The notes under the pieces were generated by a model. That model searched no databases and was not told where the DNA came from. It saw only the letters and a list, made by a program, of their open reading frames with translations. From assembly GCA_008632985.1 (NCBI GenBank), contig QPGO01000186.1, positions 62,001 to 126,000 of the forward strand: DNA of 64,000 nucleotides, read 5' to 3'. This DNA is from Psammoneis japonica. Its lineage: Eukaryota. The position numbers were made by a program, and so were the translations under genes. How positions within the stretch are numbered: the first letter of the stretch is position 1; every line of letters begins with the position of its first letter. Positions 15,501 through 44,270 of the stretch are shown here, piece after piece.

Positions 15501-15546
15501 GATGCTGTTCACCATGTGAAAAATCTCTTTCCGGTCAATGCCCGGT

Positions 15547-19699: not shown

Positions 19700-20390
19700 G
19701 ATGCTGCCATGATCAACACTGCCAAGAATGTCACTGTCAACAACAATGTGTTGGTTGTTGGCATTGTTTTTGGTGATGAGACAACCAACGCATCCACCCA
19801 GGAATGCAGAGATGCCGCACATTGCCAGGCACCAGTCAAAAATGGCTTCAATGTCCACACTGTGGACTGCCGTCACACAGACACTCCAAACCACAATCAC
19901 ATCAATGCAGATGTACGGGTCCAACAATTGGGCTGCCAAGGAATGCATCTGCAACTCTGCATTGATGGACGTTGCATCTGTGACCAAATCACATTTCAAC
20001 GACAGTGTCTTGACAGATTCTTTTTTCAGTCAATCATTGACTTGCTTCCGTCAAAAGCTGTCGGATGCAGGCAATGTGTTTCTGCCTGTCAATTCACAGA
20101 TGGCCCAGTGTCTTTACAAAAACTGGGCTGTGGTTGGCAAAGTGTGGATTGTCAGGTGCCTGTGCCATGATCAGTGGGAGGAAATGCCTCTTTTCCATCC
20201 CTCTGCAGTTGCGCCACTGGACTGTCACAGAAACGAGGGAGAAATGCATCCTCACAGTGAAGATTTTGGAGTTACGTTGTCAGAGGCACGTGCATCTTTG
20301 TGCTGTTTCACACTGGCTGTTCCTCTTTGCTTGTGCTCACTGCTTGTCATTCGTTTGTTTCAAGATCAAGGGCTTTGTTTCCAATGAACA
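19700..20390 (+). pseudogene. Decayed class-I SAM-methyltransferase-like ORF
   Basis: Across one frameshift: VLVVG, helix QECRDAAHCQAPVKNG, FNVHTVD, HINAD, ALMD, helix FFSQSLTCFRQKL, SDAG, NVFLP; order matches a Rossmann MTase core. Pattern inference only. Confidence 0.4.
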
Positions 20391-20399
20391 TCACGAACC

Positions 20400-24263: not shown

Positions 24264-24399
24264 TGTTCATGTTGTAAAAACAAGTGGTGTGAAAATAGAG
24301 TGGGACAAACCACGTGGTAAAAACAACACATGGCAGGTGACAAGATTGTGCTGCACAAATCAACTACATGTGAGCGCGCAAGATTGTAGCTTGGTTTAA

Positions 24400-25551: not shown

Positions 25552-27169
25552 TGCTTGATTGTTTTTGGTTCAAGGAAATGTGGGTGTGTTGTTTTGAGAG
25601 AACTTGTTTAATTTGTTGTTTGGAGTTTTGTGAAAGGTGGTGAAAGATTGCAGATTTAACCAGCAATTCATCAGTGCAAGTCAGGTGTCCAGGGCTGCCG
25701 GCATTTGCTTTCTTGGCCAACCAGTTGGCTCTGTTGAACACATTTGCCAAACAACTCCACTGCCTCACAACTCGACTGACCAACAAACAAACTCAAAGCA
25801 CCTCATTTTGGAAATGCGTGATGCCATCCATTTCACGCCTCCTCACAGCAGATGTTTGTCACCATCTCACACAAAACACCAACTGCCCAAGCCCCTTTGA
25901 ATGGGTGCTGCCTTTTACGGACACTGTTGTTGGTCACTCCCTCCATTTTCTTGCTTGTCTCACCAAAATGACAGCACCTCTTCCACCTGGCAGGTGGTGT
26001 TGGAAGGTGCAAGAAGGTTGGAAAGTGCAAGAAGGGAGTGTTGGCATGCCAAAAAGAGGCTTGGGAGTGAGATGGGTCAGATGGACTTGTCCAGGGTGGT
26101 TTGGACAGAGGGGGGGGGAATGGGAGAGGATGGAGCAGTGGAGTGGCCAAAGAAGAAGATGTGAAAGAGTGGTGCCCAATGCCTTCGATTGGAGCAATGG
26201 CTGGCCTGATGAGCAAGGGGGGTCATTTGCTGCTTCTTTAGCTCAAATTTTGCAGAGCAGCTTTTGACTTGCATGGTTTTTCCTGAAAAAATGTTGACAT
26301 TGCTGTCATTGTTGTGCTTTGATCATGGTGCCTGATGTGTTTGTTTTTGTGCATGATTGGGGGTGAATGTGAACAATGCATTCAAAAATGAACACTGCAA
26401 ATGTCCTTGTTTTCAAATCTTGTCATGGCAATTCCAGGACAAACATGAGGATGACCCCCCTTGAATCAAGGAAGCAAGCCACTGCAGGATTGTTGAGAAA
26501 GTGAAGGTTGCCAATTTGCCAGCAGTTGTTTGACGTGCATGCATGCACTGCAAGCAAGCAAAGAAAAACTGATTGTGTGAACAGCTGTGCTTGTTGATCA
26601 GAGCAACAAAGATGGGCAGCAACAAGCTGCGCCAAACCTCATGCCCCATGTTGACCCCACCATTGAGAGTGAATTCTTCAATGGATGATGAGGTCTGGGT
26701 TCTCTAATTTTGAACAAGTGTGCAAAATTTTTTTTGAAGGAAACATTGCCGGCTGCCCCCCCCCCTTGAGAAAAGAGAGCAGCAATTGTCAAGCTGGCCA
26801 GCAAACCAGCAACACTGTGCCACATCAAGATGCTGTGTGTTCCCATCAAATCCAGCAGCTGGAAAAAATTTGCTGCAATGGGAACATCTTTGTCTTGTTT
26901 TTTATGCAAAAAGCAAGGCGCTGCAATGTTTTGTCCACTGTCAGTGCATCAAGCATCAAAACCCTCTCTGCTCTGCCATGCCCACACAGCCAGAGCCAGG
27001 CATGCTGCTTCTCACTCCCTCTGGCCAGATCAGTGACCTTTGACACCCAGCTGTTGTTGTTGATGTTGTTGACATTGTTGTTGTTGCTGTTGCTGTTGCT
27101 GTTCATCTTCTTCTCAGGCAGGCAGGAGGAAACTCTGTCATGGCTGGCTGCCGGGTTTGACATGGCCTG

Positions 27170-27872
27170 TTTGCTCATGCACAGTGGCTTTGTTCTCCAC
27201 GTGTGGCAGTTGAGGCTATAACAGCAGCAGGCAGCAGCAGCACAGCAGCATGCAAAACAGCACAGCTGCCCACAAGGAGCTCATTGCACTTTGCAAAATT
27301 CAAGCTCTTTGAGGCAACAAACCAACAGAGCTGTGGCCACCATGTTGTTGTCTGCTGGGTTGCAAATGACACCAGAGTGGTTGAAGACCCCAGTCTTTCA
27401 TCTGCAGGACTCACAACAGAGTGACAGTTCACTGTGTCCAGAGAACTTGCAATCATTGTGTCAGCACTTTTGTTGCTGCAAACACAACAGCAGCAGAAGT
27501 GTCAAGGCAGACCAAGCCACAGCAAGTGCTCTCCTGTCAAAAACCAGGGTTGCTCTGTTTTAACTCAAACACAGTTGGCTTTGTTGGCTTTCACATCCAT
27601 TGACTGAGAGCTGTGTCAAGGGTGACAACAACAGCAAAACCCTGACAGTCATTTCTCTCTGTTTGCACCGCTCAATGTTCTTGAACTGACAAAATGAGTG
27701 TTTTCCAAAACAGGCATCTTGACTGGGGCAAATGAACAGCTGATGGCCAGCTTTGACAGAGATGATTTCACAATGATGCAGCTTCCCCACATCAGCCACT
27801 GCTTTGGCTCCATCACAGAATGCTTGTCTTTCTGGACAGAGCCAGCAGCCCAAGAAAACCCAGACTGAGTGC
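27170..27872 (+). repeat. Diverged ~0.6-0.7 kb direct repeat, copy A
   Basis: Shares tctttcatctgcaggactcacaaca, cacttttgttgctgca, caaggcagaccaag and ggacagagccagcagcccaag with 35300-35912. Confidence 0.85.
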
Positions 27873-28536
27873 TCAAAAAAGCATCTTCTTAGACTGTTTG
27901 ACTGTTTTCTAGATGCCTGCAGCAGACCAAGAAACCTTTGTCCACAGTGGCTTCAAAAGTTGCACAGAGCTGGCAGGAATCAAAGACTTGTGTGCCTCTG
28001 GTTTGCTTCATGCAAGATCAAGCTCAAGTGCACTTCACAGCAAGCTCCCTTTATGGCATCTTGTGTGTTGCATTTGTGAGCTAGAAAATTCTTGTGTTTT
28101 CCAACATTGTGTGCACATCTGCAGGTCTGCTCTGATTTGATGCATGGCAGCAGCTGCCAGGGCTTGGCATGGCAGCAGAATTGCCAAACCAGGTTGTGAA
28201 GAAACCTCAACATGGAAACAGCAGGCTGTGTGCAAGCAGCTGCAAACATCAGTTGACAAAGACAGCTGGGAAGAAAACATGTGCAGGGGGCAGCAAAAAT
28301 TTTTGTAGAAAAAGCAGGAATTTTGCAGAGGCCATTCCTCCTCAGTTGCCAGTGGCTGTTCTCTGTTTCAGCTGCACTTTGTGACATTTGGAAAGATCAA
28401 AAGACAAAACCACTGTCAAGTGAGTCAGCCAGAAGGCAACATTTTGTGCCTTGATGCAGAGCACACCTGATGGCAGCAAGAGCCGCTCCATGGAAAATCA
28501 ACCATGACAGCTTTGTTGTTGTTCATCAGGGGCCCA

Positions 28537-29270
28537 AATCAATGAATCCTGTGTCTGCAGATGACCAGACATTGGTCTGCTCTAACATGTGTGAGCATGA
28601 GCAAGTGAATTTATTTGTGGCTAAATCAGTCAGATTTGTCATGAATCCCCCCCCCCTTTGCGATGAATGGGGGTGATTTGAAAACAAACAAATGTTCTGC
28701 ACCTCTCCAACAAATGTCATGGGTTCAAATCAAGGGTGTCCAACAAGTTCACTGCAGTCAAACAAGTTGACTCACACAAAACATTCCATTTGATCGCTGT
28801 CAAGAACAACTGACTGGCTGTGGATTGGTTGGCTGGTTTCCCAACTTGTCATCATGCAAACCCATTGATTGCAACTCTTTGGGCCTCAGAATGGTGATGC
28901 ATCTTCACAACAGAGGGTCAATGCCCTGAACTTGAGCCCCAAAACAGGAGACAGCAATCAGGGGGTGGAATCAATGAATCCTTGCATCTGCCGACAACTG
29001 GACCTCAGTCTGCCCCAACATGTGTGAGCGCAAGCACATCAATTTGTTTGCAACTAAATCAGTCAGATTTGTCATGAATCACACCCATTTGTGACAAACA
29101 TGAGTGATTGCAAACAAACAAATGTCCCACACCTCTGACAAATGTCTGTGGGTTCAAATCAAGGACGTGCAAGAGTTTGTTGCAATCCAATCATTTGACT
29201 TCCACAAAACACTTCATTTGACAACTCTTGTCAACTGACTGGCAATGGAGCTGGTTTGCTGTTTTCCCAA
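28537..29270 (+). repeat. Diverged tandem duplication, period about 430 bp
   Basis: ctaaatcagtcagatttgtcatgaatc, aaacaaacaaatg, gggttcaaatcaagg and caactgactggc occur in both 28537-28843 and 28968-29270. Confidence 0.85.
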
Positions 29271-29329
29271 AGTGCCATTTGGTGACAATGTTGCTTTTTT
29301 CAACTTGCTTGCTGATCAGCATGCTGGGG

Positions 29330-32300
29330 TTCAGTTTGGCAGTTTGGCTTCACAGCATTGTTTGCAATGATGTGAGTGCCACTTTTTGCATGTTGTCTGC
29401 CAAACTGGCATTGACTCCAGTTTGCACATCTTGGCACAGTTCACCATGTGGTCACCTTTGTCCACTGACTCATCATTCTCTTCCTCCTCTTTCTTTTCAC
29501 AGTTTGCCACAATCTTTCTGTGCAAAAGTCGTTCACTTGCAACATCTTGTTTGATTTCCTGCACCAGCTGCTTGAAGAACTTGTCTGCCCTTGGCAACCA
29601 TCATTTGCACTCCCTTGGTGTCTTCCACTCTATTGGAGTTTCCCACCATGAAGTGCTTCAGTTGTCTCGCGCACTTTTTCTTCCCAGTGCCACATTCCTT
29701 GTCAGGGAGTTCCTTGTTGTGGCAGCTCTTGAGGGACTTCTCCTGCACCTCCTTGAACTTGCTTGCCATCTCCACAATTGTTCCTTGCTCCGTGGACTCT
29801 TCAGGGTCTTTTTCCAAAATGATGAATGTGCTTGATCCATTTTCTGCATCCTCCAGCTTGGTAATGACGAGATCCAGCATGGCAGTTTCACACAAGTCTT
29901 CCCTGCCGGCAGTGGGGTGTCCTTGGTCATCAACATCTGTGCTGCAGTCTGACATCAAATGGCTGTTCTCATTGTTGCTGTTGTGCTCTGCATGCCACAC
30001 AACAAAGTTGTTCTTCAGGAGCATGTGGGGGTGAACGCCCCGGGGGTGAATGCCCCGGCACATGACATGCCCAACCTTGTGTTTTTGGAGAGGCTTTTCT
30101 TCCACAAATGTCTCCCATGGCTGGCTGCAACAAGCAATTGCAGAACACTGTCTGCAATGTTGGATTCAACAATCACTCTTGGAATTGTTCTGGCAAAGGC
30201 AAGATGCAATTGTTCTTGTTGCAGCATGCACAAAGCACTGCATCATCAGCAACAACATGACATTGATGTCAGTTTGTTTCCTCCTCATTCATGACAATCC
30301 TCAGCAACACTTGCTGTGAAATTTGTCTTGCTGGGCCTGACATGCATTTGATTGCTTTGCCACCAGCCAATCCTGGCACAACCTGTTTTGTTTCATTTTC
30401 ATCTACAGGAAATGCAGGTGTGTCTTCTGCTCTGCCTCTGGAAGCTCTGCAAGCATTCCATCCATCAGCAGCATTGGCCTGCCATTCCAGGCACAGTCTC
30501 TGTGCAGCGTGCAGGTTTCCTCTGCCTGACTGCCTTGCACCAAACACAAGTGTGATGCAGAGAAACACCTTTTTTTGACATGGTCTCTCACCTTGACTGT
30601 GTCCCTGCCCATGTTCTCATCATTGTCCACCAACTTGGCTGGGTTGATCTGCCTCTGCACTGTGGTTGCCATGTCTCCTTGTTGTTTTGTGTGTGGTTTG
30701 TTTTCCCAGTGCTCATCTCAGCAAAGGATGTGCACACATGGTTGCCAGGCCATTCACCGTTGCAAGCTGGATTTCCCCAAATTTGCAAATCTTCTGATCT
30801 GAACATCAGATGGTCATTGACATCATGCATTCTCTGATGTTCACTTGTGCAACTCGGGTTTGCTCACCCAAGTTTCAAAAACAATGCAATTGCTCATGAC
30901 TGAATGTCTGAATGTCCAAAATTTCAAATGTTGTTTTGCAGTTCTCCAACATGTCAATTCGATTTCAAAACAATCAGTTTGCTTGCTTCCAGCAAGTCTC
31001 CTTTTGTTTGTGTCAATCTTGGTTGACCCCCCACTGCAATTTGATCCAAAGCATGTCTTGTCACTGCTGCAAGCCCAGCCAAATTGGTTGTGTTGATGTT
31101 GCAGCCAGTGATTTGGGCACACTGTTCCAAGCCACTGCATTGCCCATTTGTCAACAATGGGGTGAGGAGGAGCCCTTGCTGTCGTCCTCCTGTCAGTGTT
31201 GCTCAAACTCTCTCCCAGCACCTCCAAAAACACTGTTGACAGCTGAGATGTCAACCCCCCCTCTGGTGCTTAAGCTGTTTCCTCCCATTTGTCCCCTGGC
31301 GCAACAGCGGCATGTGATGTTGAGTTTTCTGCTGCTGACACAGCAGAAAATCAGAGAATTTGCATGTCTGGTGCAAATCGGTTGTCCCAGCAAGCATCTC
31401 TTTTGTTGCAGCTTCTTGTTGGCCATCAGCTGGTCAACAATGTTGAAGGGGCCTTGGTTTTGAAAGGGCATGTCCACCTCCGTCCACCATCCTTCCATCT
31501 TCTTGAAAAAGTGGGCATTGATGAAGCACCAGCAACAAGTCACAATGGCTTGCACACTGGGAAAATCTCCCCACACACTGTCTCCCAGCACAATGCAGTG
31601 ACTCCATTGTTGTTGGTTCTGTCCAACACAATGGCAATTGGCGCAGCTCCCCTCACAGGGTGAAAGAGTTTCAATCCCATCTTGAGTCATTCCAAAGTTG
31701 CTGAGGCAGCGAATGACATTTTTTTGCAGATGGATGCATGTGCCACTTGCCCACCTGCAGTTTTACTTTGCCTCCTTTGGCTGGGCAAAAGTGCAATCCT
31801 TGACAGGATTGGTGAACTGACCCAGAAAATCCACCTTGTCCAACATGGTGAACAATGCACTTTGTTTGTTGATGACATTCCGGTTTTGTGACACCAAGGA
31901 AAAAAGTGCAGAATTGCATGCAAGGGGATCACAGTGACACACAATGAAGGTTCACCTCAATGTGCATCACTGTGTTCTGAGTGGTTTGACCCATTCAAGT
32001 GACTTTTTGTCACACCATCACCAGTCTTGTCTGCTCCTGTTGGGAACAGCATCCAAGATTCTTGTTGCATGGTTGGAATGCTCATTTGTGGCTCTGGCTG
32101 GCAAAACACAAATGCTTGTTTTGCATGTTTTGCCTCTTCCTAAAAAAATCCATTGACAAACATTGACCTGCTGCAACTTGTTCCTTGGTCTGGCCCACAC
32201 TTCATGGGTGCAATCATGCTTGCGTTCTGGAGCGGACTCTCTGATTTCCTGGGGCAGCACACCAGTGAGGCACTTCTCAACCTGGTGATGACAGTCCAGA

Positions 32301-35200
32301 CCCAGTTTCCTGCAGCACACAACTTCATCCAAGTGACACAACAGCATGGCTCATGAAGCAAAACTTTCATTTCTGGGTGTGGGAATGACACCTCAAACAC
32401 TTCCAGCATTTATTTTCATGCTCCACATGCCCAACAACAAATGACATGATGTCAAAAGGCACAAAGAAGGCTCCACCTTCTTTCATTGCCACTGACAGAT
32501 CTGGTGTCATTTGCTGAAAGCCCATTTGCCAAACTGGTCATTCAACCAACCCTTTTGCAACCAAAAAAAGTCCATGTTAATTTCTGGTGTGAAATTGCCT
32601 CCAAACTTGCTCAGCATTTGATCAAGGAAGTTGGGGTTTCACACATTGCAGTTTGGGTGTCGTTTTCCATGACCACCATTGCCAAGAGACATGGTGGAAA
32701 ATTTGCATTCTTTGTTTCCTGATTTGTTGCAATTGTGCTGCAATTGCTGACAGTCCAGCAGCCTGGCCATGTTGGATCAAAGCTTTGCATTGTGAGAAAA
32801 CAAATGGATGTTTGTGTCATCAAGCATGTTTTGGTGTGACACAAGAACATTGATGTCTTTGGTCTGCATCATGCACAAGAAAAGAACCTTCACCTAAATC
32901 CCAGAAGGTGGTCCATCCACAACCTCACTTGTTCCATCCAGTTCATCATTTTTTTTCCACCTTTGTGGGAATGACAACAATGATGTCTTTGGAGGGAGGG
33001 TCAGCAATCTGAGCCTTGTCGTTGAATGCACCTGGCTGGTCATCTCCTTCTTCCTGTGTCACAGCACTGTCAAAAATGAAATCATCCATGGAAGTGTTCC
33101 CAATCCTGCTGGCCCCACCATTGGTGCCATCAGTTTTGTCTCCATTGTCAACTGAATTGGCAGCAACATCAATTTCCTTGTCCTCCCAGTGTTGGTTGGT
33201 CTGCTCTTCTGTCAGAGTTGGCATCTTCTTCTCCCAATGGTGTGTGCCACATCATTTGATGCTGGGAATGCCATCTTCACCAATGAGGGAGAAGAGATGT
33301 TGATTCTCAACAAAATGTTCCTTTTTGTCAAATCTTTGATTCTGTTTTTGTGGCTGTTGCAGGTGACAGACTCTTGCAGCTGTCACCGTGATGGGCGACA
33401 CCAAAATTTTGCACAAGAATCTCCAATGCTTCTGCCCTTTCATCGTTTGTCAGCTGAGCAAATTGCTTTGTGGCACCAAGGTTTGTCACAGGGTGAGCCA
33501 AGTCCCACGGATCTTTGTGTCCTGAAATGACTGCATCACATCCATTGGGCATTTGCAGAGTGAAAATTGTCTGGAACTCATTGATGTTGGTTTCACGAGA
33601 CCAACTGCAGCAAAGTTTGTGTTTGTTTTGTAACGCAAAGTGATGGAAATTTTGAGTGCCTGTGTTTGCATCAATCCACTCCAGCAGGGCAATGACATCT
33701 GTTGTCATGTCATCCATTCTTTGGCTCACACCCAAGTTTTTGAGTTCTTCAATTGACATTGCCCATTGGCGATCTTCCTTGTTTGGTGATTTGACGTGTC
33801 ACCTCTGTCTAGGAGGATTGCTGCTGGATTCATCAGTGCTGGTGTGGTGGTGCTTCTTGCCATCCTCCACAGCAGATCCACCACTTTCATCATCACAGCT
33901 GTCATTGTCATGACCGCTGTAAAACATTGTCATCAACATCACTGCAGTGCACGTCAATGAAATCACACCCACTTGGGTTCATGCAATGAGGGGTCATTCC
34001 AATGTCCCCAGCAGCCATTCAGAAAAGTTTGATGGCATGAGACGGAAACAAATGAGGGTGGACATGTCCAGAGAATTGCGCAGCTCATCTGAGTGCTTGG
34101 CGGCAACACAGAAGAACTGGTTGAAGCCAGTCTGACAGCTTGCCATTGTGGCCAGCTGCACACAACCATGACAAATGCCCAAGTCCTCATGAATGTTGGG
34201 GGGGGGGTTGTCTTGGCCAGAGAAACCCAAAGATTCCACATGACCCAAAGTGGGAAACACAATGGCACCCTGCTTTGTGTCACCCTTGGATTGTGCAGAG
34301 ACTGACTCCCATTGGCAGCCATCATCAAGAGTGCCAGGATGGCTGTTCCATGCCCTTTTCCTCACTTGAAACAAAAACAACAATGCAACACAGTTTGAAA
34401 ACAATGTTCCAATCAGGGGCTGGCATGGTTGGACAAAAGACTGATCTTTGGCAGATCCAGAACTGCTCTTCTTCTCACCATTGCCAGGCAAACCAATCTG
34501 TGCAGAAGAGATGAACTTTTCTCTCCATTTTGGCTTGAGGCACCTGTGCATCAAGTCACAAACCCTTGAGCAGATGATCCCCAAATTCTTCATTTTCTGG
34601 CAGTTGAGATTCTTGCAAGTCCTTGAAAATGAATTGTGCATCTGCTCTTTCACTGGCTCACACTGATGGGCTGTTTTTTCATGCCACGGGCCTTGTCAGC
34701 AATGGTGTTCCTGATGGCACCCAGCCCTTTGTTCAGCATGTTTTCACTGTGTTGCCAGATTTAACTTTGGTGTCAGCATCAATGGCTTGCAGAAGATTGC
34801 ATGCTACAATCACAAATGTCTTTGGTTTGGAGCATTGAGAAAAGACCAATTTGCACCAGTTGCAGGTGATTCCATGTTCAGACTCAATGTGAGAGAGGAA
34901 AAGAGTCTCCAGTGTGGATGCAGTGATGCTCTGAGTCTGTGCCACAAAACTGGCTTTGGCAACAAAGCTGCTCTTCTGCAGAAACATTGAACAGTTGTGG
35001 CAACTTTTGGACTTGACAAACTGGCACATGCAATCCACCATTGCCGCCAGGTTCTTGCCACAGCACTCAAGGTTGTTGAAGGCCTCCACAACTTCCTGTG
35101 CTGAACAACAAACCACCCAGAGGCCTTCCCCTTCTTCCTTTCCAACTTGCAGGTCCAACCATGGCTTTGAACACAACAGAGCCCATGTTTGCATCCAAGA
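29330..35200 (-). pseudogene. Series of decayed minus-strand ORFs of unidentified element(s)
   Basis: Protein-like fragments (29533-30105, 30269-30568, 32946-33224, 33328-33759, 34733-35194); no RT, integrase or transposase motif recognised. Confidence 0.4.
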
Positions 35201-35299
35201 GATTGATCCATGACATCATTGACAGCAATCACTTGCTCAAAAAAGTGGCACAATCCATTCTTGGGATTGTGCCACAAATGGTGGCAGGGCTTGTCATGT

Positions 35300-35912
35300 T
35301 TGCTCAGATGGCAGCTTTGTTTTCTCCACACAGTGGGGCTGTGACCAGCAGCACAGCAGGGTGCAAAGCAGCACAGTCACCTGCAAAGAGCTGTGCACAT
35401 CTTGGAAGCAACAAACCAGAAGAGCTGCAGCCATTGTTGTCTGGATTGTAAATCCATGCTGGAGCAACTCCAAAGCCCCCAATCTTTCATCTGCAGGACT
35501 CACAACACAATGATGGTCCCCAGAGAACATGTCATTGCTGGGACAACACTTTTGTTGCTGCACACACAACAGCAGGAATGCCAAGGCAGACCAAGTCACA
35601 GTGAGCACTCTCTTGTAAAAAAACCAGGGAGCCGCAGTTGCTCTGTGGACTTTTGAACAAAGTCAGCTTGGGTGTTGGCTTCCATGCTCCATTGGCTGCA
35701 GGTTGTGTCAAGCAGGCTGTGTCAAGGGCAGTGACAACAGCAGTTCTTTCTCTGTGTTTCTTCCAAAACAGGCAACTTGACAGGGGCAAATGAAACAATG
35801 ATGCAGCCCCCCCCCCCCCCCACACACACATCAGGCACTGCTTCAGCTCCAAACTCAGAACACTTGTCTTCATGGACAGAGCCAGCAGCCCAAGGGAGCC
35901 CACACTGAGTGC
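35300..35912 (+). repeat. Diverged direct repeat, copy B (of 27170-27872)
   Basis: Same shared blocks; both copies end at ctgagtgc; reciprocal CA/TG differences such as cagcaagtgctctc vs cagtgagcactctc. Confidence 0.85.
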
Positions 35913-36669
35913 AGGGTGGACACTTCATTTGTCATTGTGGGCTGCAGTGCCACCCAGCAGACCACACTGTTCACAGTCCTGCCAAACAACCATCAGAAAT
36001 TGGACCACCAACTTTTGAGTGGTGCCACCAGGAATGCAAGCACAGTTGAGGTCTTGGCATTGCTTTCTTTTTTGTCTTCAGAGTTTCTGCATGAGTGGCA
36101 TTTGTGCTGTGTAAAAGTTGTGCCAAAAGAACAAGCCCACCCTTTGCCCTGGTTCAATTCTGATGAGCTCTGTCATTGAGCCCATTTGAAAGTCCAAAGT
36201 TTGAGCTTCACCATCAATGACTCTGCATCTGCTGGGGTGCACTGGGCTTGATGCAAATTTTCTCAAACTGGGTGACATGGCTTTGTGCACCATGCTCCAA
36301 ATGATTGCCAGCAGCATGGGAAGAAACTGATGTGAGCGGCAACAGTTTTAAAGATTGCACAGTCAACTGTGCGGAGAAGATCATCTCCCAAGGAATGGAT
36401 CATCCTGCCATCCAAGAGTTGAATCTGGTCCAATGTGCACCCTGTGATGTTTTTTAAGTTCAGAAAAAAGCAGGGAGATACAAGCAACGTGGAAATGAGA
36501 CTCACTCAGCATGTTCACGCTTCTTTTCTGACAACTTCAGCAAAGACAGAGTGCCCAGCTGCAAGCAAGAAACCATTTCGTTGCGGCTTTTGCGTGGACG
36601 AGAGGCACTTGGACCTGAAGTCGTGGGTGGCAACCACCGGCAACCAGTGAAAAGGATTTCTCTTAGTTG

Positions 36670-36830
36670 CGGGAATCACCCAGAGGTGCCACAACGGCAT
36701 GAGAAACATGTCTCTCCTGTTGCACACTGGGTCGTGGTTCCACGTCAACAATGCAAGGAGATGAAGAAAGGAGGAAAGACATTGATGAAGGAACATGTGG
36801 AAAACTTGGAACGAATCGGGTTTGTGAGGT
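36670..36830 (+). pseudogene. HA-domain relic (second copy at about 41775-41930)
   Basis: EVPQRHEK...QQCKEMKKGGKTLMKEHVENLERIGF aligns to VPQIYE...QRKDYENLKEGKKSPLTEEKIKKLEDIGF of the intact gene at 405-1931. Confidence 0.7.
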
Positions 36831-37130
36831 TGATCAAGGATGAGGTGTGGTCGATAAGGCATTAGAGTAGTGTAGGGTGGTCGTGTGATAGTCTTGCGGA
36901 GCACGTCCGACAAGGTCATCGGTGAGGTTCAGAACGCAAGATGCTAACACTCAAATGTACACCTTCTTTGTACCACCTGTATCTTGAGAACGTTTTTTTG
37001 GTGTTATCGCGTTGGGAACCATTCCGCGTCCTTGTGCGGTAAAGTGTTACGTGTGATGTAACGGCATATCGCCCAAGTGAACTATGACGGCACCCCCATT
37101 AGTGAGCTATCGTCACGAGCATAAGTAACA

Positions 37131-37500
37131 CTAAAGACTGTTTCGTGGTGGAAGAATGGTATGGGCAATAATCATTCCTACGAAAATGGGCCCAGCCACT
37201 ACAAACATTTGCAGAAATTGCTCCCATCCCTGATCCGTTTCTCCAGAAGCAGGCAGTTCTCGCCAGGCCACGGAAGCCAATGGACCCACTCACTAGCAGA
37301 AGAATGCCAGCCGCCGCCATAACGGACGCAGGTCGGTTTCACAACCTTTCCAGAGTGTCGGCCGTCAATGACATGGCCACTCATCCAATAAGAGTCCCAA
37401 AATTGTCAGAAACGTAAAAAGAACCAAGATAACTAACACCGTACCCAGACACCGAGACGACCAAAGACGAAAGTATGTCACGGTATGGTGTTTGATAGTA
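37131..37500 (-). pseudogene. 3' fragment of the ThrE exporter gene (duplicate)
   Basis: MAAAGILLLVSGSIGFRGLA identical to 42258-43736; small deletions and frameshifts. Confidence 0.9.
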
Positions 37501-39466
37501 GAGTCCGGGCGAGAGTTCATGATTTGTTCACTCTCCTGGCGCATGCTTTGGTATACTTCCTTAAGTCGCTCCAGTGCAAGAGAGGAGTCTCCTTCCAATC
37601 GAGAATCTTCCTGCTGCGATTCGAGCTCATCTGTGCTTACTTTGAGTTCACATGCCTTGACAAATCGACCCTTGATTTCTGGGCGATGAAGGCAGTCATA
37701 AGGAGCCTCGGTCTCAGGTAACTTCACTGCAGTAGCCACAGCAGCTGAAGCAGATGCTGCAGCTACAGTCCGTTTTGGTGGGGCGGCAGCAACACTTAAG
37801 CGTTCTGCAGCAGCAACTGAAGCAGATGCCGCAGCACAGTCCGTTGTGGTGGTGGGGCAGTAACACTTGAGCGTTCTGCATCAGACTTTTTCGTTTCAAC
37901 CTTTCTTTGCTTTCCTTTGGGCATGCCAAGAGCTTCAGCAGCCTCTCGTGCTTCGTCCTTATGCGGTCGATCCCGCTTTCGTTTCGGGTCTGCAGCTACC
38001 TGATCACTCTCCGATGCGGAAAGGGATGTCAGTGCATGCTCTCTCGCTTTCTTCATTCGTTCTTGCATTTCACTCTCCAATGTGGATGTAAGCGCATGTT
38101 CTCTGGCTCTGTTATTTCGTTCTCGTTTCGGGTCTGTAGCTACCTGATTACTTTCCGATGTGGGAAGGGATGTCAGCGCACACTCTCTCGCTTTCTTCAT
38201 TTGTTCTTGCATTTCACTTTCAGACATGGATGTACGCGCATATTCTCTGGCTCTGTTCTTTCGTTCTCGTTTCGGGTTTGTAGCTACCTGATTGCTCTCC
38301 GATGCGGGAAGGAATGTCAGCGCATACTCTCTCGCTTTCTTCATTCGTTCTTGCATTTCACTCTCAGATAAGGATGTAAGCGCATGTTCTCTGGCTCCGT
38401 TCTTTCGTTCTCTTTTCGGCTCTGTAGCTACCTGATTACTCTCCGATGCGGAAAGGGATGTCAGCGCATAGTCTCTGGCTCTTCTATGTGGTTCTTGCAT
38501 TTCACTCGCTTTCTTCATTCGTTCTTGCATTTCACTCTCAGATGTGGATGTAAGCGCATATTCTCTGGCTCTCTTCTTTCGTCCTCGTTTCGGGTCTGTA
38601 GCTACCCGATTACTCTCCGATGCGGAAAGGGATGTCAGCGCATACTCTCTGGCTCTTTTATGTCGTTCTTGCATTTCACTCGCTTTCTTCATTCGTTCTT
38701 GCATTTCACTCTCAGATATGGATGAAAGCGCATGTTCTCTGGCTCTCTTCTTTCGTCCTCGTTTCGGGTCTGTAGCTACCCGATTACTCTCCGATGCGGG
38801 AAGGGATGTCAGCGCATACTCTCTGGCCCTTTTATGTCGTTCTTGCATTTCACTCTCAGATATGGACGTAAGCGCACATTCTCTGGCTCTCTTCTTTCGT
38901 CCTCGTTTCGGGTCTGTAGCTACCCGATTACTCTTCGATGCGGGAAGGGATGTCAGCGCATACTCTCTGGCTCTTTTATGTCGTTCTTGCATTTCACTCG
39001 CTTTCTTCATTCGTTCTTTCATTTCACTCTCAGATATGGATGAAAGCGCATATTCTCTGGCTCTCTTCTTTCGTCCTCGTTTCGGGTCTGTAGCTGCCCG
39101 ATTACTCTCCGAGGCGGGAAGGGATGCCAGCGCATACTCTCTGGCTCTTTTATGTCGTTCTTGCATTTCACTCTCAGGTATAGCTGGGGTGACGATGGGA
39201 GGATGCGGCTTCTTCGTTCGTAGCACCACCACTGTGCGGACGGTTTCAGCTCTCGATGAAAGGAGCTTAAGTACATCTTGAACGCTCCAATTCGCAACTC
39301 GCACACGATCAATGGTGTGAATTAAGTCTCCTGTGACAAATTCATTTGCAGAGCCAACGCTACTCGTCATCACGGTGCAGTAGCTCGAGGTTGAACGAGC
39401 TTTTACCAGTGACATCTCGACGTTTCCCGGACGGAGTTTGAGGAAAACGTGCTCCCGATCTTGCAT
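37500..39466 (-). pseudogene. Paralog of the HA-domain gene (405-1931): repeat-expanded, frameshifted near 37835, truncated before the HA domains
   Basis: MQDREHV start and upstream aagacctgaaagatg shared; similarity continues to MNSRPDST then switches to ThrE sequence; AT-hook altered (KRKRDRPHK). May still be expressed. Confidence 0.8.
38030..39180 (-). repeat. Coding tandem array: 15 AR(E/D)xAL units of two alternating subtypes
   Basis: Alternating ALTSLPASESNRVATDPKRGRKKR and ALTSISESEMQER units; single copy in the paralog at about 700-810. Confidence 0.95.
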
Positions 39467-39659: not shown

Positions 39660-41950
39660 CAGAAAAAATGCACGGCAACGGAATCTCGCGAGCGACCATT
39701 CCGTCCGACTCTGGCGTGGCTGTCGACCTTGCCGCAACAAGCTCATCAGAAAGTGACAGCGACGATGGACAGTGCATGAACAACAAAGATTCCTCGCAAA
39801 CAAAAACACCTGCATGAACTGAACTTTGGGAACATCAAGTTCAAGATCAATGAGGAAAAATCAAGCCTGACTGAGTGTCAGAGCTGGCCAGCAGCCCAGA
39901 CATTCTTTCCATGCTGAAAGATGGCACAGCGTTCTCATCACCCCCAAACTTGTCGATGCAGCATGTTTCCAATCCTTGCCCAAAGCCTTGTGAGCACACC
40001 ATGCAAAAAGCAGACCTTGCAACCAAATCTGCTGCAGCCCAAAGGCTGACAAACACCGCTGAACAAGTCATCACGAGTCTTGCAGCTTCTGTGCTGATGT
40101 GAAAAATGCTGCCAGCAAGCAGCAAGGAGGCTTTGATGTGCTCCAGCTCCCACCACAGACAAACTTGCTGCTTCAATTGCAACACCGCCCGCCACAAGGC
40201 AACACTGAAAGTCAGAAACAAACTTGTCAAGCATGAGGGCTTTTCTTGCTTTCTCATGATCTTGCTCATGAATGTGCAGAGACGCCCTGCAGCAATGTCA
40301 TGGATTTGGCTGGGTTGGATGCAGGGTTGCTCACCTCCTCTGTTGCTCTGCACTGTTGCTTGTTGCCAGTGAGAGGATTTGCTCAGTTTTCACACAACTC
40401 TCCATGTCAATCTTGTGGCAATTTTGTCAACAAATTGAATGTGAGCCAATGAGTGGGAAAGCTGTCAGGTGGGTTGGAAGTTGTCATGCTGTCAGGGCGG
40501 TCCTTTGCAGCACAAGTTCAAAGATGACCAGATGTGAGGTTCCATTGGAAAACAAGAGGGAAGACATCAGACATGCACTGCTCATTGACCAGAACTCTCT
40601 CTCTCTCTCTGGCTTGTTGGAGGAAGAAGTCCAGCCAAAATCAGTGTGCTGTCAACGCCAGTTGGCAGTCATGTGTGCTGCAATGCTGACCACAGCTGAA
40701 AGAGCTGTCATGCAATGCACAAAGAGCCTGCCACTCCCACTGGAGAGAACCAACCAGAGGTGCACAAATCATCAGTTGTTGTTTGTGCGCATGCATCTGC
40801 ACACTCAGCATGAGTGAATGAGACCAAAATGATGAGATCGCTTTTGTCGTTTGCACATTGATTGCATGCAAGGAAGCACACGCATGGACAACAAGATGAC
40901 TTGTGCACCTCTGGAGCAGAGAACAAGAAATGCCAGGGTGGATGCTGCATTTGTCATTGTGTGTTGCAGTGCCGTGCAGCAGACACCACAGCCCTGCCAA
41001 ACAACAATTGAAAATTGGGCCGCTGACTGGAGAGTGATGACACTGGCAATGCAAGCACAATTGAGAGCTTGGCACTGTCTTCTCTTTTGTCTCCAGAGTT
41101 TCTACATGAACAGCATTTGTGCAAAAATTGGTGCCAAAAGGGGCAAGCCTCTCACACTGCCTGGCTCAATTCTGATGGGCTCTTTCATTGATTCATCTGA
41201 TTTTCCTCAGACAAAATGAGCCCTTGACTTTGTTTGTCTTGTAAAGCCATTCTTTGAAAGTCCAATGTTTGAGCCTGGAGGAAAGAAGTGCTTCTTCATC
41301 AATGACTTTCATCTGCGAGGGTTGCACCATGCTTGCTGCAATTTTGCTCAAACTGAGTGATGCAGCTTGAGTGGCACCATGCTCCAAATGATTGCTGGTG
41401 GCATGGAAGAAACCCACATGAGCGGCAACAGTGTTGGCAATTCCACAGTGAACTGTGGAGAGAATGCCATCTCCTGAGGAATGGAGCATCCCGCAGTCCA
41501 AGAGTTGAGTCAGGTCCTGATGGCTGATGGACACCCTGTGACATTTTCAAAGTTCAGAAAAAAGACAGGAGACACAAACAATGTGAAAATGAAACCATGC
41601 TGGACTTTGTGCATTCAAACTTCTTTTGCTGATGGCTTCGGCAAGGCAAAGCACCCAGCCACATGTTGGGAACCATCTCATCATGTTTTTTTTTTGTGCA
41701 GAAGTGCAAGGCACTTGGACCTTAAGTTGTCAGTTGCAACCACCGGTGACTGGTGAAAAGGATTTCCCTTAGTTGCGGGAATCACCCACAGGCACCACAG
41801 GGGTGTGAGAAACATGTCTTTCTTGAACAGTGGGTCGTGGTTCCACGTCAACAATGCAAGAAGACGAAGAAAGGAGGAAAGACAATGATGAAGGAACATG
41901 TGAAAAAATTAGAACAATTGGGTTTGTGAGGTTTTTCAAGGATGAGGTGT
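39660..41950. other. Hypermutated island 2 (TpA/CpG depleted)
   Basis: No TA dinucleotide found by eye between 39657 and 41102; CG sparse in the interior. Confidence 0.92.
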
Positions 41951-42257
41951 GGTCAACAAGGCATTAGAGTAGTGAAAGGTAGTCGTGTGATAGTCTTGCA
42001 AAGCCTTTCCGAGAAGGTCATCGATGTGATTTAGAACGCAAGATGCTAACACTCACATAATGTACTCCGCCCTCGTACAACCTGTATCTTTAGAATGTTT
42101 TAATTCTGGTGTTATCGCATTGGGAACCATTCCGTGTCCTTTTGCGGCAAAGTCATTCGTGCGATGTAATACGGTAGCATGTCACCCATGCAAGAAGCCT
42201 ACCATACGACGGCACCCCCTTTAGTGGGTCTATCGTCGCCAGCAAAATCAACACCAC

Positions 42258-43736
42258 TCAAAGACTGTTTCGTGGTGGAAGAATGGTATGAGCAATAATC
42301 ATTCCTATGAGGATGAGCCCAGCCACAACAAACATTTGCAGAAACTGCTCCCATCCCTGATCCGTTTCTCCCGAAGCAATACTCGCCAGGCCACGGAAGC
42401 CAATGGACCCACTCACAAGCAGAAGAATGCCAGCCGCCGCCATAACGGACGCAGGTCGGTTTCGCAACCTTTCCAGAGTGTCGGCCGTCAATGACATGGC
42501 CACTGATCCAATAAGAGTCCCGAAATTGTCAGAAATGTAAAAAGAACCAAGGTAGCTAACTCCATACCCAGACACCGAGACGACCAACGACGAAAACATG
42601 TCACGGTACGGTGTCTGATAGTAGACCGCAAAGCCCATGGCCGCTGCTGGAACTCCTAAAAGTAACCACAGATTGTTTGGATACAATGGTGGGTCTACGT
42701 TTTCTGGATGTTGCGTTTGTGCAATACCGTCGACTAAAACATAGGCCAACCATGATCCGGTAAACAGTTTCACAAGGCACATGATCCCCGTGATGAGATT
42801 GCTAAAACCAGACAAAATGTGATTTGTAGCCATCTCGATGACCCCAAGGGAAATGGTGTATCCGGGGATGAGAATTAAAATGGCTCCAAGAATGGACATG
42901 ACGGGTGAGGACTGCGGTATCGCCGTATAGGCCCCCGTTGCAATCAGTCCAGTAACAAAGCCACAAACCACGTCAAGCCATCGACTGGCATCATGACGAG
43001 CATAGAGCGACTCTGGACCCATCCTTTCATCGATTTCCACAATAAGAAACACAGGAATAGACATAGCTGTTCCCAAGCCGACATCAATCCAAGAAGATCC
43101 CAGCAGAATCCCAAAGCCGAAGGCTACACACGGATAAGCAAGGGCTCTCCAAATAAGCCCCCAAGGCCGTTTTAAGAGTTCGATTTCGTTCAAACGATCC
43201 ATGGCTTCAGAAATAGATACCTCATTTCTCCTCATTTCCAATTGTAAATCATTAAGAGCTGCCAAACGATTCGCCTTGATACACGACTTGGTGCTAATGT
43301 GGTGAATTCTCTGTGTCGATAAGTCATCTTGCGCACATTGATAAAAGACAAACGTTAAGTGATCTGGAAATGAACGAAAGGTCCCCCGAAAGCCATGGCG
43401 AGCCGTCAATCCCGATAAATGCTTTTCCAACCGTTTGGCTCGAGATCCACTTTCGTGAGCCAATGTCCCGAATCGAATGATGAAGCGAACAACGTCCTCA
43501 AAGCCCGGCGGCTCTTGATGATTATGAGCGATTTCAATAACATCTTGGTTGTGCTTTGACCTAAATCGAAAATTGGCTTCTTCATTATGACATGGCTCTG
43601 AAGATTCGTTATCATTCTTATCTGCTCCGTGCCAGGGAGCCAATGACGCAAAAACACCAATCTCATCGTCAGTCTCGGGAACGGTTTGTTCCGGCAAAGT
43701 CAAGCCGGATTCGAGATCTGTGCTAGATTCAGACAT
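42258..43736 (-). CDS. Threonine/serine exporter (ThrE family)
   Basis: GTLAHESGSRAKRLE, ILILIPGYTISLGVIE, GILLLVSGS; about 10 TM helices; start set at MSES. Confidence 0.88.
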   Translation of the reverse strand: MSESSTDLESGLTLPEQTVPETDDEIGVFASLAPWHGADKNDNESSEPCHNEEANFRFRSKHNQDVIEIAHNHQEPPGFEDVVRFIIRFGTLAHESGSRAKRLEKHLSGLTARHGFRGTFRSFPDHLTFVFYQCAQDDLSTQRIHHISTKSCIKANRLAALNDLQLEMRRNEVSISEAMDRLNEIELLKRPWGLIWRALAYPCVAFGFGILLGSSWIDVGLGTAMSIPVFLIVEIDERMGPESLYARHDASRWLDVVCGFVTGLIATGAYTAIPQSSPVMSILGAILILIPGYTISLGVIEMATNHILSGFSNLITGIMCLVKLFTGSWLAYVLVDGIAQTQHPENVDPPLYPNNLWLLLGVPAAAMGFAVYYQTPYRDMFSSLVVSVSGYGVSYLGSFYISDNFGTLIGSVAMSLTADTLERLRNRPASVMAAAGILLLVSGSIGFRGLASIASGETDQGWEQFLQMFVVAGLILIGMIIAHTILPPRNSL

Positions 43737-44270
43737 GTCCAATTTTTCTCGTTACGGATACCATTCGAGTAGAGCAAAGATTGTTCACCAACAGCAACTC
43801 AATACACACCTTCAGAAAAATCTCAGCCCATAATACACATACCGGTAAAAGGTGCTCGCCAAAAAGATACAGTACGGTACATACCGTTGTACAGCCGACG
43901 GTACCGTACTACCGGTACGAAAACTGCCACGTCAAAACACTGGGACTTCGTGGGACTGATCCGCCATCTTGATCGCGCGATATTTATACTTTTCAGTCGT
44001 TCTGCATGCTTGTCAAGACGACTCGATCATTGCTTTGCATTAGGCTCTGAATAAAATCCTGTGAATCTAAGATATCCGATACTGGACACATCGTGCATGA
44101 TTACAGCGGGCGGGAAAGATCCGGATAAGTTCACGTCGTACCGGTAGTACAGTAGTAGGTCGTAGTTTGTTACTCCGCTTTCACTCTCATTTGACAACGA
44201 TCAGAACCCCATGCATTGACCATAAACTGCGAAGTGTAGCATATTTTAAATTCATTACGATTGAAAGAAC

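What the first reader, a model, noticed from the sequence alone, without database searches (positions are those of the whole stretch)
35912..37500. Duplication straddling the island edge polarises the mutation to TA
Seen: 35912-37500 and 40933-42624 are copies. The parts inside the islands are heavily diverged with many reciprocal CA/TG differences, whereas the ThrE part outside is nearly identical. In the HA relic, copy 1 reads GTG CCA CAA CGG CAT (36686-36700) and copy 2 reads GCA CCA CAG GGG TGT (41792-41806). Established: the HA motif is VPxxY (VPQIY in the gene at 405-1931). Inference: the ancestor was GTA CCA ... TAT, and each TA resolved independently to TG in one copy and CA in the other. 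CpG decay would need Ala and Arg ancestors.
Basis: partly seen in the sequence, partly recalled or inferred. Interest (0 to 1): 0.82.

Follow-up and report, generated by a model that had tools for sequence, protein, structure and literature searches.

The report
Duplicated gene relic records TA-erasing mutation
Two copies of a dead gene fragment sit half inside DNA stretches where nearly every TA and CG has been turned into TG or CA, and comparing them shows this rewriting continued in place after the copying and stopped at the same point in both, but it tells the TA-versus-CG origin for only one or two sites.

Summary
35912-37502 and 40934-42625 are copies. Each runs from a TA/CG-poor island into normal DNA. 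Inside the island the copies differ by 24 adjacent double transitions CA<->TG; outside there is 1 (17 versus 0 under a strict filter).

The quoted codons are correct. A profile of 449 HA repeats favours Tyr (0.54) over Arg (0.01), so TAT is the likely ancestor of CAT/TGT. It also favours Val (0.90) over Ala (0.00), but GTG could itself be ancestral.

The reading is only partly right:
- ThrE is "nearly identical" because of purifying selection (pS 0.154, pN 0.030). The non-island spacer is 83% identical, the island 80%.
- CpG decay acts in the same islands.
- A simulation shows two-step changes within one copy could give many of the reciprocal sites.

New points:
- The unconstrained duplicated DNA outside the island is unmutated, so the duplication did not trigger the process, unlike RIP.
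- TA loss and CG loss have different edges in copy 1.

Earlier notes of this scan report the same TpA-erasing process on other DNA of this genome. The only precedent my three full-text searches found is a 2026 preprint on Bigelowiella natans.

The parts
35912..37502 (.). Copy 1 of the duplication. This is the derived copy: HA relic 3' part, spacer and a ThrE 3' fragment.
   Evidence: Local alignment. The right end is joined to gene X at a TCTAC microhomology, and the left end abuts a repeated element.
40934..42625 (.). Copy 2 of the duplication. This is the original locus, because ThrE continues intact to 43742.
35912..36854 (.). Island part of copy 1, poor in TA. It holds 24 reciprocal CA/TG sites, the last at 36698.
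   Evidence: Observed against expected from base composition: TA 3 versus 40.0 in 35912-36479, and 1 versus 23.2 in 36480-36854.
36480..36854 (.). Sub-zone of copy 1 where TA is erased but CpG is largely kept.
   Evidence: TA 1 (expected 23.2 from base composition, about 12.6 at the o/e of 0.54 seen in the window's genes). CG 15 (expected 22.4).
36458..36862 (+). HA-domain gene relic, copy 1: a stop-free 135-codon stretch. The recognisable HA repeat lies at 36674-36826, and the stop TAG is at 36863.
   Evidence: Pfam HA E = 8.7e-4, 20 bits, below the 28.4 cut-off. Own profile of HA repeats gives E = 5e-13 against a 93-sequence set. 89 HA-repeat proteins at E <= 1e-3.
41750..41964 (+). HA-domain gene relic, copy 2, in two frames (41750-41926 and 41827-41964). 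The stop TAG is at 41965.
36855..37132 (.). Non-island spacer of copy 1, with normal TA and CG.
   Evidence: TA 19 against 18.8 expected, CG 18 against 15.7 expected. 83.1% identity to copy 2.
37133..37502 (-). ThrE pseudogene fragment, matching residues 372-494 of ThrE. It has a frameshift and two in-frame stops, and it is not hypermutated.
   Evidence: tblastn gives two pieces in different frames. Codon table. TA 15, CG 18.
42258..43742 (-). Intact ThrE gene.
   Evidence: Pfam PF06738 (5.6e-43) and PF12821 (1e-15).
37494..39466 (-). Gene X, a paralogue of residues 1-293 of the HA gene at 405-1931. It has an expanded 144/174-nt tandem repeat, lacks HA domains, and runs into the ThrE fragment.
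   Evidence: tblastn 70-79% identity. Repeat family D1. Junction.
405..1931 (+). Intact HA-domain gene, used as the unmutated family member.
   Evidence: Pfam HA 4.5e-31. Its HA region has TA 17 against 27.9 expected and CG 22 against 25.1 expected.
15000..36854 (.). Island 1.
   Evidence: In 15500-35900: TA 76 against 1400.7 expected, CG 238 against 1150.3 expected, TG+CA 4596.
39700..41956 (.). Island 2, lying between gene X and ThrE.
   Evidence: In 39800-40933: TA 0 against 74.5 expected, CG 13 against 66.6 expected.
35263..35911 (.). Repeated element that ends exactly at the left breakpoint of copy 1. Its partner is at 27129-27871.
   Evidence: 613 aligned columns, 77.7% identity, 21 CA/TG among 34 double transitions.
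40754..40914 (.). 161-bp palindromic element just left of copy 2.
   Evidence: Self reverse-complement alignment. Raised contig depth and loose ends there.

Best explanation
SHOWN
- A convergent gene pair, the 3' part of an HA-domain gene (+) and the last 122 codons of ThrE (-), was duplicated about 5 kb away.
- The new copy was joined at a TCTAC microhomology to a truncated HA-gene paralogue (gene X).
- Neutral divergence is about 15-17% along the whole duplication.
- In both copies only the HA-gene part lies in a domain where TpA and CpG have been replaced by TpG/CpA.
- The TA-poor zone ends at homologous positions in both copies, within 8 nt of the relic's stop codon.
- The duplicated spacer and the dead ThrE fragment of copy 1 keep normal TA and CG.

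INFERRED
- A mutation process acts on the DNA in place and on both strands (CA in copy 1 at 13 sites, TG at 11). It continued after the duplication and is confined to a domain. I take that domain to be silent chromatin bounded by the neighbours' transcription units.
- It was not set off by the duplication as such.
- It has two components with different reach. One is A:T-to-G:C change at TpA, most simply adenine deamination with a 5'-T preference (the enzyme is unknown). The other is ordinary deamination of methylated CpG.
- The HA gene was already partly mutated when it was copied. Some of its remaining TAs, including the motif tyrosine codon, were then resolved independently to TG or CA.
For: Structure of the duplication.

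Uniform neutral divergence:
- Transversions 6.1% (island) against 6.5% (spacer).
- ThrE pS 0.154 against spacer divergence 16.9%.

The signal is specific to the island:
- 24 reciprocal CA/TG sites against 1 outside, p = 4e-5; 17 against 0 under a strict filter.
- A second repeat pair inside island 1 shows 21 CA/TG among 34 double transitions.

A TA ancestor at the motif Tyr: Y 0.54 against R 0.01. Val 0.90 against Ala 0.00 at the other site.

Shared changes:
- A conserved Tyr (0.75) reads TGC in both copies.
- A conserved Arg (0.78) reads CAT in both copies.

TA loss is separate from CpG loss:
- Copy 1, 36480-36854, has TA 1 and CG 15.
- The same 153 bp of the intact gene's HA repeat have 9 TA and 6 CG. 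The relic has 0 (copy 1) or 1 (copy 2) TA, and 5 (copy 1) or 3 (copy 2) CG.

Balance in island 1 (my arithmetic on the counts): the excess of TG+CA, about 1680, is close to the missing TA (about 680) plus the missing CG (about 900). GC content is unchanged (0.475 against 0.474-0.482).

Not homology-triggered: the dead ThrE fragment and the spacer of copy 1 have TA 15 and 19, and CG 18 and 18.

Partly mutated ancestor: the simulation gives 18-45 reciprocal sites on average from a native ancestor and 6-19 from a fully depleted one. The observed 24 lies between.

The sequence is reproduced by contigs of run X1, with 2 differences in each copy.

Precedent: TpA-only A:T-to-G:C hypermutation of a single-copy, silent viral insertion in B. 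natans (preprint 10.64898/2026.01.13.699255; abstract, Discussion and first part of Results read).
Against: - Only 2 of the 24 reciprocal sites could be polarised, and one of them (Val) is ambiguous because GTG may be ancestral.
- At a high ordinary transition rate and fast resolution, a depleted ancestor reaches 12-26 reciprocal sites. So 24 does not firmly exclude the view that most are two-step events in one copy.
- For the 13 reciprocal sites in 35912-36479, both TA and CG are depleted in both copies. No polarity can be assigned there.
- Variants between the window and run X1 inside the islands are mostly CG versus TG/CA: 40092, 40110, 40789 and 41697. There is one TG/TA (36270) and one CA/TG double (40384-5).
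- Transitions outside YR steps are also higher in the island (10.6%) than in the spacer (6.1%). So the process is not strictly dinucleotide-bound, or the alignment is noisier there.
- There are no chromatin, methylation or RNA data, so the chromatin-domain idea and the chemistry are untested.
- X1 is probably the sample the window was assembled from and its sequencing technology is not on record.
Confidence: 0.6

Rival explanations
1. The reciprocal CA/TG sites are mostly two successive hits in one copy. An ordinary transition makes a new TA or CG, which is then quickly resolved. This happens on a sequence that had already lost its TA and CG before the duplication. On this view the duplication shows that the process stayed active, but it does not reveal the ancestral dinucleotide.
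For: - The simulation with an island-like ancestor gives 6.3-18.9 reciprocal sites on average, with 95th percentiles up to 26.
- Copy 1 keeps a valid Val codon (GTG) at one of the two motif sites.
- The shared Tyr-to-Cys and Arg-to-His changes show that mutation had begun before the copying.
Against: - With rates that reproduce the standing TA and CG counts (lTA 3, lCG 1.5), the depleted ancestor gives 10.9-13.8 sites (5-95% range 6-20), below the observed 24.
- At the motif Tyr neither copy keeps a plausible ancestral codon.
Confidence: 0.3
2. Decay of methylated CpG alone produced the islands and the reciprocal sites, and there is no TA-specific process.
For: - CpG is strongly depleted in both islands.
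- A conserved Arg reads CAT in both copies.
- Most X1 variants in the islands are CG versus TG/CA.
- CpG methylation of diatom transposons by DNMT5a is documented (PMC9998398, abstract and passages read).
Against: - TA falls from an o/e of about 0.54 to about 0.05, which CpG decay cannot do.
- In copy 1, 36480-36854, TA is 1 while CG is 15.
- The motif Tyr position would need an Arg ancestor (0.01).
- GC content is unchanged, although about 900 CG-to-TG/CA losses alone would lower it.
Confidence: 0.05
3. A RIP-like, homology-triggered process: the duplication itself made both copies targets.
For: - Both copies are mutated.
- Diatom DNMT4 enzymes are related to fungal RID (PMC9998398, passages read).
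Against: - About 650 bp of the duplicated DNA outside the island, including an unconstrained pseudogene fragment, keep normal TA and CG.
- The direction is opposite to RIP: TA is lost here, not gained.
- The shared changes predate the duplication.
Confidence: 0.05
4. The high identity of the ThrE part is due to gene conversion between the copies.
For: - Identity is 93.4% against 83.1% in the adjacent spacer.
- One 100-column stretch has only 3 differences.
- pN of 0.030 is lower than expected if copy 1 had been a pseudogene throughout.
Against: - Synonymous divergence (pS 0.154) equals the spacer's divergence.
- dN/dS is 0.18, the pattern of purifying selection.
- Copy 1 carries its own stops and a frameshift.
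Confidence: 0.1
5. The islands are a base-calling or assembly artefact at heavily modified bases, not real sequence.
For: From memory: some long-read base callers misread methylated motifs as transitions.
Against: - Contigs of run X1 (k-mer depth about 60) reproduce both copies, with 2 differences in 1327 and in 1437 bases.
- The relics also carry indels, TGA stops and 6% transversions.
- A deterministic miscall would give the same letters in both copies, not reciprocal ones.
Confidence: 0.03

Closest known systems
TpA-restricted hypermutation of integrated NCLDV and virophage DNA in Bigelowiella natans (Mettrop et al., bioRxiv 10.64898/2026.01.13.699255; abstract, Discussion and first part of Results read)
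   Same: - TA is turned into TG or CA on both strands.
- The changes are confined to bounded, silent regions.
- No repeat is needed; their NCLDV region is single copy.
- The long-term trace is TpA depletion with CpA+TpG enrichment.
- The enzyme is unknown.
   Different: - There the mutations were observed directly in mutation-accumulation lines. Here they are inferred from paralogues.
- The lineage differs: a chlorarachniophyte there, a diatom-like genome here.
- The target here is a host gene-family relic and unidentifiable repeat DNA, not viral insertions.
- Here TA loss is nearly complete and goes together with CpG loss. The preprint's main text does not contain the word CpG.
Repeat-induced point mutation (RIP) of Neurospora and other fungi (details recalled; mentioned)
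   Same: Dinucleotide-specific transitions that destroy repeated or foreign DNA in place, leaving bounded, compositionally odd blocks.
   Different: - RIP makes TpA from CpA; here TpA is removed.
- RIP is triggered by homology and covers the duplicated length. Here 650 bp of the duplication stay unmutated.
CpG decay of methylated transposons (diatom DNMT5a-dependent methylation, PMC9998398)
   Same: CpG depletion with TpG/CpA excess in silent repeat DNA. It is present in these islands.
   Different: It does not touch TpA. In copy 1 the CpG-poor zone ends about 370 bp before the TA-poor zone.
ADAR/ADAT-type adenosine deamination (discussed in the preprint's Discussion)
   Same: A-to-G outcome with a preference for a 5' U/T neighbour.
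   Different: The known substrates are RNA. Here the change is fixed in genomic DNA, in place, on both strands, and no enzyme could be looked for because no genome is held.

Membership tests
TpA-restricted hypermutation (B. natans type) | Changes are A:T to G:C at TpA, giving TpG or CpA. | tested here: inconclusive
   TA is nearly absent and TG/CA doubled. The direction is shown by a protein outgroup at one site strongly (Tyr) and at one weakly (Val). The other 22 reciprocal sites are not polarised.
TpA-restricted hypermutation (B. natans type) | Both strands are hit. | tested here: met
   At the 24 reciprocal sites copy 1 has CA 13 times and TG 11 times.
TpA-restricted hypermutation (B. natans type) | Restricted to TpA only. 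| tested here: not met
   CpG is lost as well, and transitions outside YR steps are 10.6% against 6.1%. The CpG loss has a different edge and may be a separate process.
TpA-restricted hypermutation (B. natans type) | Confined to bounded regions, with no repeat needed. | tested here: met
   The edges lie at homologous positions (36855 and 41965, the homologue of 36863). Duplicated DNA beyond the edge is unmutated.
TpA-restricted hypermutation (B. natans type) | De novo mutations are seen in cultured lines. | not testable with these tools
   Only contigs of one sample were available.
RIP | C-to-T change at CpA, raising TpA. | tested here: not met
   TpA o/e is about 0.05 in the islands.
RIP | Mutation covers the duplicated length. 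| tested here: not met
   Spacer and ThrE fragment of copy 1: TA 19 and 15, CG 18 and 18.
CpG methylation decay | CpG depletion with TpG/CpA excess. | tested here: met
   CG 238 against 1150.3 expected in island 1. Conserved Arg to His in both copies.
CpG methylation decay | It accounts for the whole composition shift. | tested here: not met
   About 680 missing TA, and unchanged GC content.
HA domain (Pfam PF03457), for the relic | Match above Pfam's gathering score. | tested here: not met
   20.0 and 20.2 bits against a cut-off of 28.4. The relic is accepted as a decayed member on other grounds: E = 5e-13 to a profile of 420 repeats, in a 93-sequence set, and conserved W, G, L, G and F kept.
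ThrE (PF06738 and PF12821) | Both domains present and the frame open. | tested here: met
   Met for 42258-43742. Not met for the fragment 37133-37502, which holds only residues 372-494, with a frameshift and two stops.

The most novel reading that the evidence does not exclude
A diatom-like alga has a DNA mutator that erases TpA. It works by chromatin domain rather than by homology and is separate from CpG-methylation decay. It can take in an ordinary host gene, not only transposons or viruses. It stops within a few bases of the same point in two independent copies, which would place its boundary at a sequence-encoded feature such as the end of the neighbour's transcription unit.
Probability: 0.45. 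Interest if true: 0.8.

Novelty: new member of a known kind. Interest (0 to 1): 0.6.

Why it matters
A TpA-specific A:T-to-G:C mutation of silent DNA is so far described, in the library I searched, in one preprint on an unrelated alga. If diatoms have it too, it is a widespread and unrecognised genome defence or chromatin-linked mutation process.

This locus is a natural experiment with a built-in control: the same duplicated DNA lies inside and outside the mutated domain. It argues that the trigger is not duplication, that the process acts in place after copying, and that TA loss and CpG loss can be told apart. It also gives two precise edges (36855 and 41957) at which chromatin, methylation and transcript ends can be mapped.

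Tried and rejected
- No whole genome is held for the window. So no genome-wide copies, outgroups or candidate deaminases could be sought.
- A third copy of the island part was looked for in the window with a transition-tolerant scan. The best other score was 39.5, against 33.5 for a shuffled query.
- The unmutated upstream region of the gene at 405 was tried as an outgroup for the left edge of island 2. The homology with gene X ends at 39531, short of the island.
- Further HA repeats were sought in the relics by a six-frame profile scan. Only the last repeat of each copy is detectable: 4 hits in the window, 2 of them in the intact gene.
- 75 stop-free stretches of the islands were run against Pfam. 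None reached a curated cut-off; there were only weak zinc-finger and other hits.
- Searching the representative library with the relic gave 89 HA proteins. The best is 37% identical, so there is no close intact relative for DNA-level polarisation.
- ThrE relatives found were at most 39% identical; the few that carry a name are bacterial. They were not usable as a DNA outgroup.
- Homogeneous-rate estimates of how many reciprocal sites stem from CG (my arithmetic from the counts) were dropped as decisive evidence. I realised that two-step changes in one copy break their assumption, so I replaced them with the simulation.
- Sequencing runs: no RNA holder is listed. Only Logan contigs of one sample were available, so expression and transcript ends could not be examined.
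- The Atlas look-up of the ammonium transporter showed eukaryotic relatives but no finer taxon. That the genome is a diatom's rests on its gene content, on my memory that HA repeats and FTO homologues are typical of diatoms, and on earlier notes. I did not establish it.
- Three full-text searches found no description of TpA-erasing mutation in diatoms. The supplements of the preprint are closed and were not seen.
Full report
WHAT THE WINDOW IS

GC content is about 47-50% throughout. Long open frames outside 15000-36850 and 39700-41950 encode ordinary eukaryotic proteins:
- an HA-domain protein at 405-1931
- an ammonium transporter
- an INTS7-like protein
- an FTO homologue in two frames
- ThrE at 42258-43742
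- lipases and a Rieske protein

No whole genome is held. I call the genome diatom-like on gene content and on earlier notes of the scan, but I did not establish the taxon.

THE ISLANDS

A 500-base profile of dinucleotide odds ratios shows two blocks, about 15000-36850 and 39700-41950. In them TA drops to 0.00-0.2, CG drops to 0.03-0.5, and TG and CA rise to 1.5-2.3. Elsewhere TA is about 0.5 and CG about 1.

In island 1 (15500-35900) the counts are:
- TA 76, against 1400.7 expected from base composition
- CG 238, against 1150.3 expected
- TG+CA 4596

I then applied the odds ratios of the window's own genes (TA 0.54, CG about 0.99, TG and CA about 1.15); this is my arithmetic on the counts. The excess of TG+CA comes to about 1680. 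That nearly equals the missing TA (about 680) plus the missing CG (about 900). GC content is unchanged. So both TA and CG have been converted to TG/CA. CpG decay alone cannot explain this.

None of 75 stop-free stretches from the islands reached a Pfam cut-off.

THE DUPLICATION

A transition-tolerant local alignment gives 35912-37502 against 40934-42625 (repeat finder found the same pair in pieces). Each copy holds three things:
- on the + strand, the 3' part of an HA-domain gene
- a spacer
- on the - strand, the last 122 codons of ThrE

Copy 2 is the original, because ThrE runs on intact to 43742. In copy 1 the ThrE piece has a frameshift and two in-frame stops.

At 37502 the ThrE piece of copy 1 is joined, at a TCTAC microhomology, to gene X. 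Gene X is a paralogue of residues 1-293 of the gene at 405, with an expanded tandem repeat and no HA domains. The left end of copy 1 abuts a repeated element, 35263-35911, whose partner lies at 27129-27871. A 161-bp palindrome lies just left of copy 2. There is no third copy in the window.

DIVERGENCE ALONG THE DUPLICATION

By zone:
- Island part: 80.4% identity, transitions 13.5%, transversions 6.1%.
- Non-island spacer: 83.1% identity, transitions 10.4%, transversions 6.5%.
- ThrE part: 93.4% identity, transversions 1.9%.

In the ThrE part 14 codon differences are synonymous and 10 are not. Nei-Gojobori values on 119 codons are pS 0.154 and pN 0.030. Synonymous divergence therefore equals the spacer's 16.9%.

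The whole segment is of one age. ThrE looks nearly identical because of purifying selection, not because it lies outside the island, and gene conversion is not needed. The low pN suggests that copy 1 was under constraint for some time before it was truncated; this is an inference.

THE ISLAND-SPECIFIC SIGNAL

The signal is a class of change, not overall divergence:
- There are 24 sites where one copy has CA and the other TG, against 1 in the 644 columns outside (Fisher p = 4e-5).
- These are 24 of the 35 adjacent double transitions in the island. None is CG against TA.
- With a strict alignment filter the counts are 17 in the island and 0 outside.
- Copy 1 has CA at 13 of these sites and TG at 11, so both strands are hit.
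- The in-island repeat pair 35263-35911 / 27129-27871 shows the same pattern: 21 CA/TG among 34 double transitions.

POLARITY

The relic matches Pfam HA only below threshold, at 20 bits against 28.4. A library search found 89 HA-repeat proteins, the best 37% identical. From their repeats I built a profile: 420 repeats in the first round, 449 aligned in the second. The findings at its conserved columns are:
- Val position (V 0.90, A 0.00): the copies read GTG and GCA.
- Tyr position (Y 0.54, H 0.07, C 0.02, R 0.01): the copies read CAT and TGT.
- A second Tyr (0.75): TGC in both copies.
- A conserved Arg (0.78): CAT in both copies.

From this I conclude four things. The motif Tyr is best explained by TAT resolving independently to CAT and TGT. 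The Val site fits GTA, but GTG is commoner in this window's genes (29% against 17%) and could be ancestral. One TA-to-TG change and one CG-to-CA change are shared, so they probably predate the copying. CpG decay is real here as well.

Only the last HA repeat is detectable, so the other 22 reciprocal sites have no protein outgroup.

A CA/TG difference can also arise in one copy alone. An ordinary transition makes a TA or CG, which is then resolved the other way. I simulated 923-base sequences evolving on two branches, with ordinary rates plus fast TA and CG resolution.

- A native-composition ancestor gives 18-45 reciprocal sites on average.
- An already depleted ancestor gives 6-19 on average, with 95th percentiles up to 26.
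- With rates that reproduce the standing TA and CG counts, the two give about 32 and about 11-14.

The observed 24 lies between. It fits a gene that was partly mutated when it was copied. It does not allow each reciprocal site to be read as an ancestral TA.

EVIDENCE THAT TA LOSS IS A PROCESS OF ITS OWN

In copy 1, 36480-36854 has 1 TA (about 12.6 expected at the genes' odds ratio) but 15 CG (22.4 expected from composition). The homologous part of copy 2 has 3 TA and 6 CG. The 153 bases of the intact gene's second HA repeat hold 9 TA and 6 CG. The relic holds 0 TA in copy 1 and 1 in copy 2, and 5 CG in copy 1 and 3 in copy 2. So TA is erased where CpG is largely kept.

WHAT TRIGGERS IT

The TA-poor zone ends at homologous positions in the two copies. 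The first TA of the dense series is at 36855 in copy 1 and at 41965 in copy 2, which is the homologue of 36863. That is within 8 nt of the relic's stop codon.

Beyond that point the duplicated spacer and the dead ThrE fragment of copy 1 have normal TA (19 and 15) and CG (18 and 18). A homology-triggered process like RIP would have mutated the whole duplicated length. This one did not.

The simplest reading is a domain-limited process. The domain could be silent chromatin bounded by the neighbours' transcription units. This is inference only, because no RNA holder was listed and no chromatin data exist.

IS THE SEQUENCE REAL?

Contigs of run X1, with k-mer depth about 60, reproduce both copies with 2 differences each. 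X1 is probably the sample the window came from. Its differences from the window inside the islands are:
- four CG versus TG/CA (40092, 40110, 40789, 41697)
- one TG/TA (36270)
- one CA/TG double (40384-5)
- two other transitions
- one transversion in X1, and a further one seen only in X2

The processes therefore look recent or still running. CpG changes are now the commoner kind, as expected once almost no TA is left.

COMPARISON WITH WHAT IS KNOWN

The closest case is the 2026 preprint on Bigelowiella natans. There, mutation-accumulation lines showed A:T-to-G:C changes only at TpA, on both strands, in a silent single-copy NCLDV insertion and in a virophage insertion. Its main text does not mention diatoms or CpG.

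RIP works in the opposite direction and depends on homology. CpG methylation of diatom transposons by DNMT5a (PMC9998398) explains the CpG component only. Three full-text searches found no description of this process in diatoms. Earlier notes of this scan report the same signature on many other pieces of this genome, including LTR pairs. I did not test those.

VERDICT

The TA reading holds well at one site and plausibly at a second. The wider claim that the duplication polarises the mutation to TA is only partly supported. The ThrE contrast was misattributed.

The locus is most useful for three other inferences: the mutation acts in place after the copying, the duplication itself is not the trigger, and TA loss and CpG loss have separate edges.

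Noticed in passing
11981-14478 (-): An FTO homologue lies right at the left flank of island 1 and is read in two frames overlapping by 4 nt. The catalytic domain is at 13372-14478 (4.4e-68) and the C-terminal domain at 11981-13375 (6.6e-18). This could be an intron, a frameshift or a true split.
   Followed up: no
42258-43742 (-): The ThrE protein's relatives in the large protein library are at most 39% identical, and the few that carry a name are bacterial. No close eukaryotic relative was listed. Possible bacterial origin.
   Followed up: no
37896-39293: Gene X holds 8 tandem units of 144 or 174 nt. They multiply residues of about 97-134 of the paralogue at 405-1931. Run X1 shows several variant contigs here.
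   Followed up: partly
40754-40914: A 161-bp perfect-ended palindrome with no TA sits in island 2. Contig depth is raised and there are loose ends at 40753, 40785, 40880 and 40913, as for a short element repeated in the genome.
   Followed up: partly
35806-35830: A run of C followed by (CA)n. Contigs of X1 break here (35794-35835).
   Followed up: no
36855-37502 / 41957-42625: Outside the island, 5 of the 8 TA-versus-TG/CA differences are TA in copy 1 against CA in copy 2 (36855, 37040, 37126, 37132, 37474). This may be a one-strand bias or a low-level spill-over of the process into copy 2.
   Followed up: no
35912-36854: Transitions outside YR steps are 10.6% in the island against 6.1% in the spacer and 5.0% in ThrE. 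This excess is not explained by TA or CG changes.
   Followed up: no
40384-40385: The window reads CA where the X1 contig reads TG, at full depth. This is a reciprocal difference between alleles or strains inside island 2.
   Followed up: partly
36761-36763 / 41864-41866: Copy 1 has ATG and copy 2 ACG at a profile column that favours Leu or Met. This looks like a TG-to-CG change that creates a CpG inside the relic.
   Followed up: no
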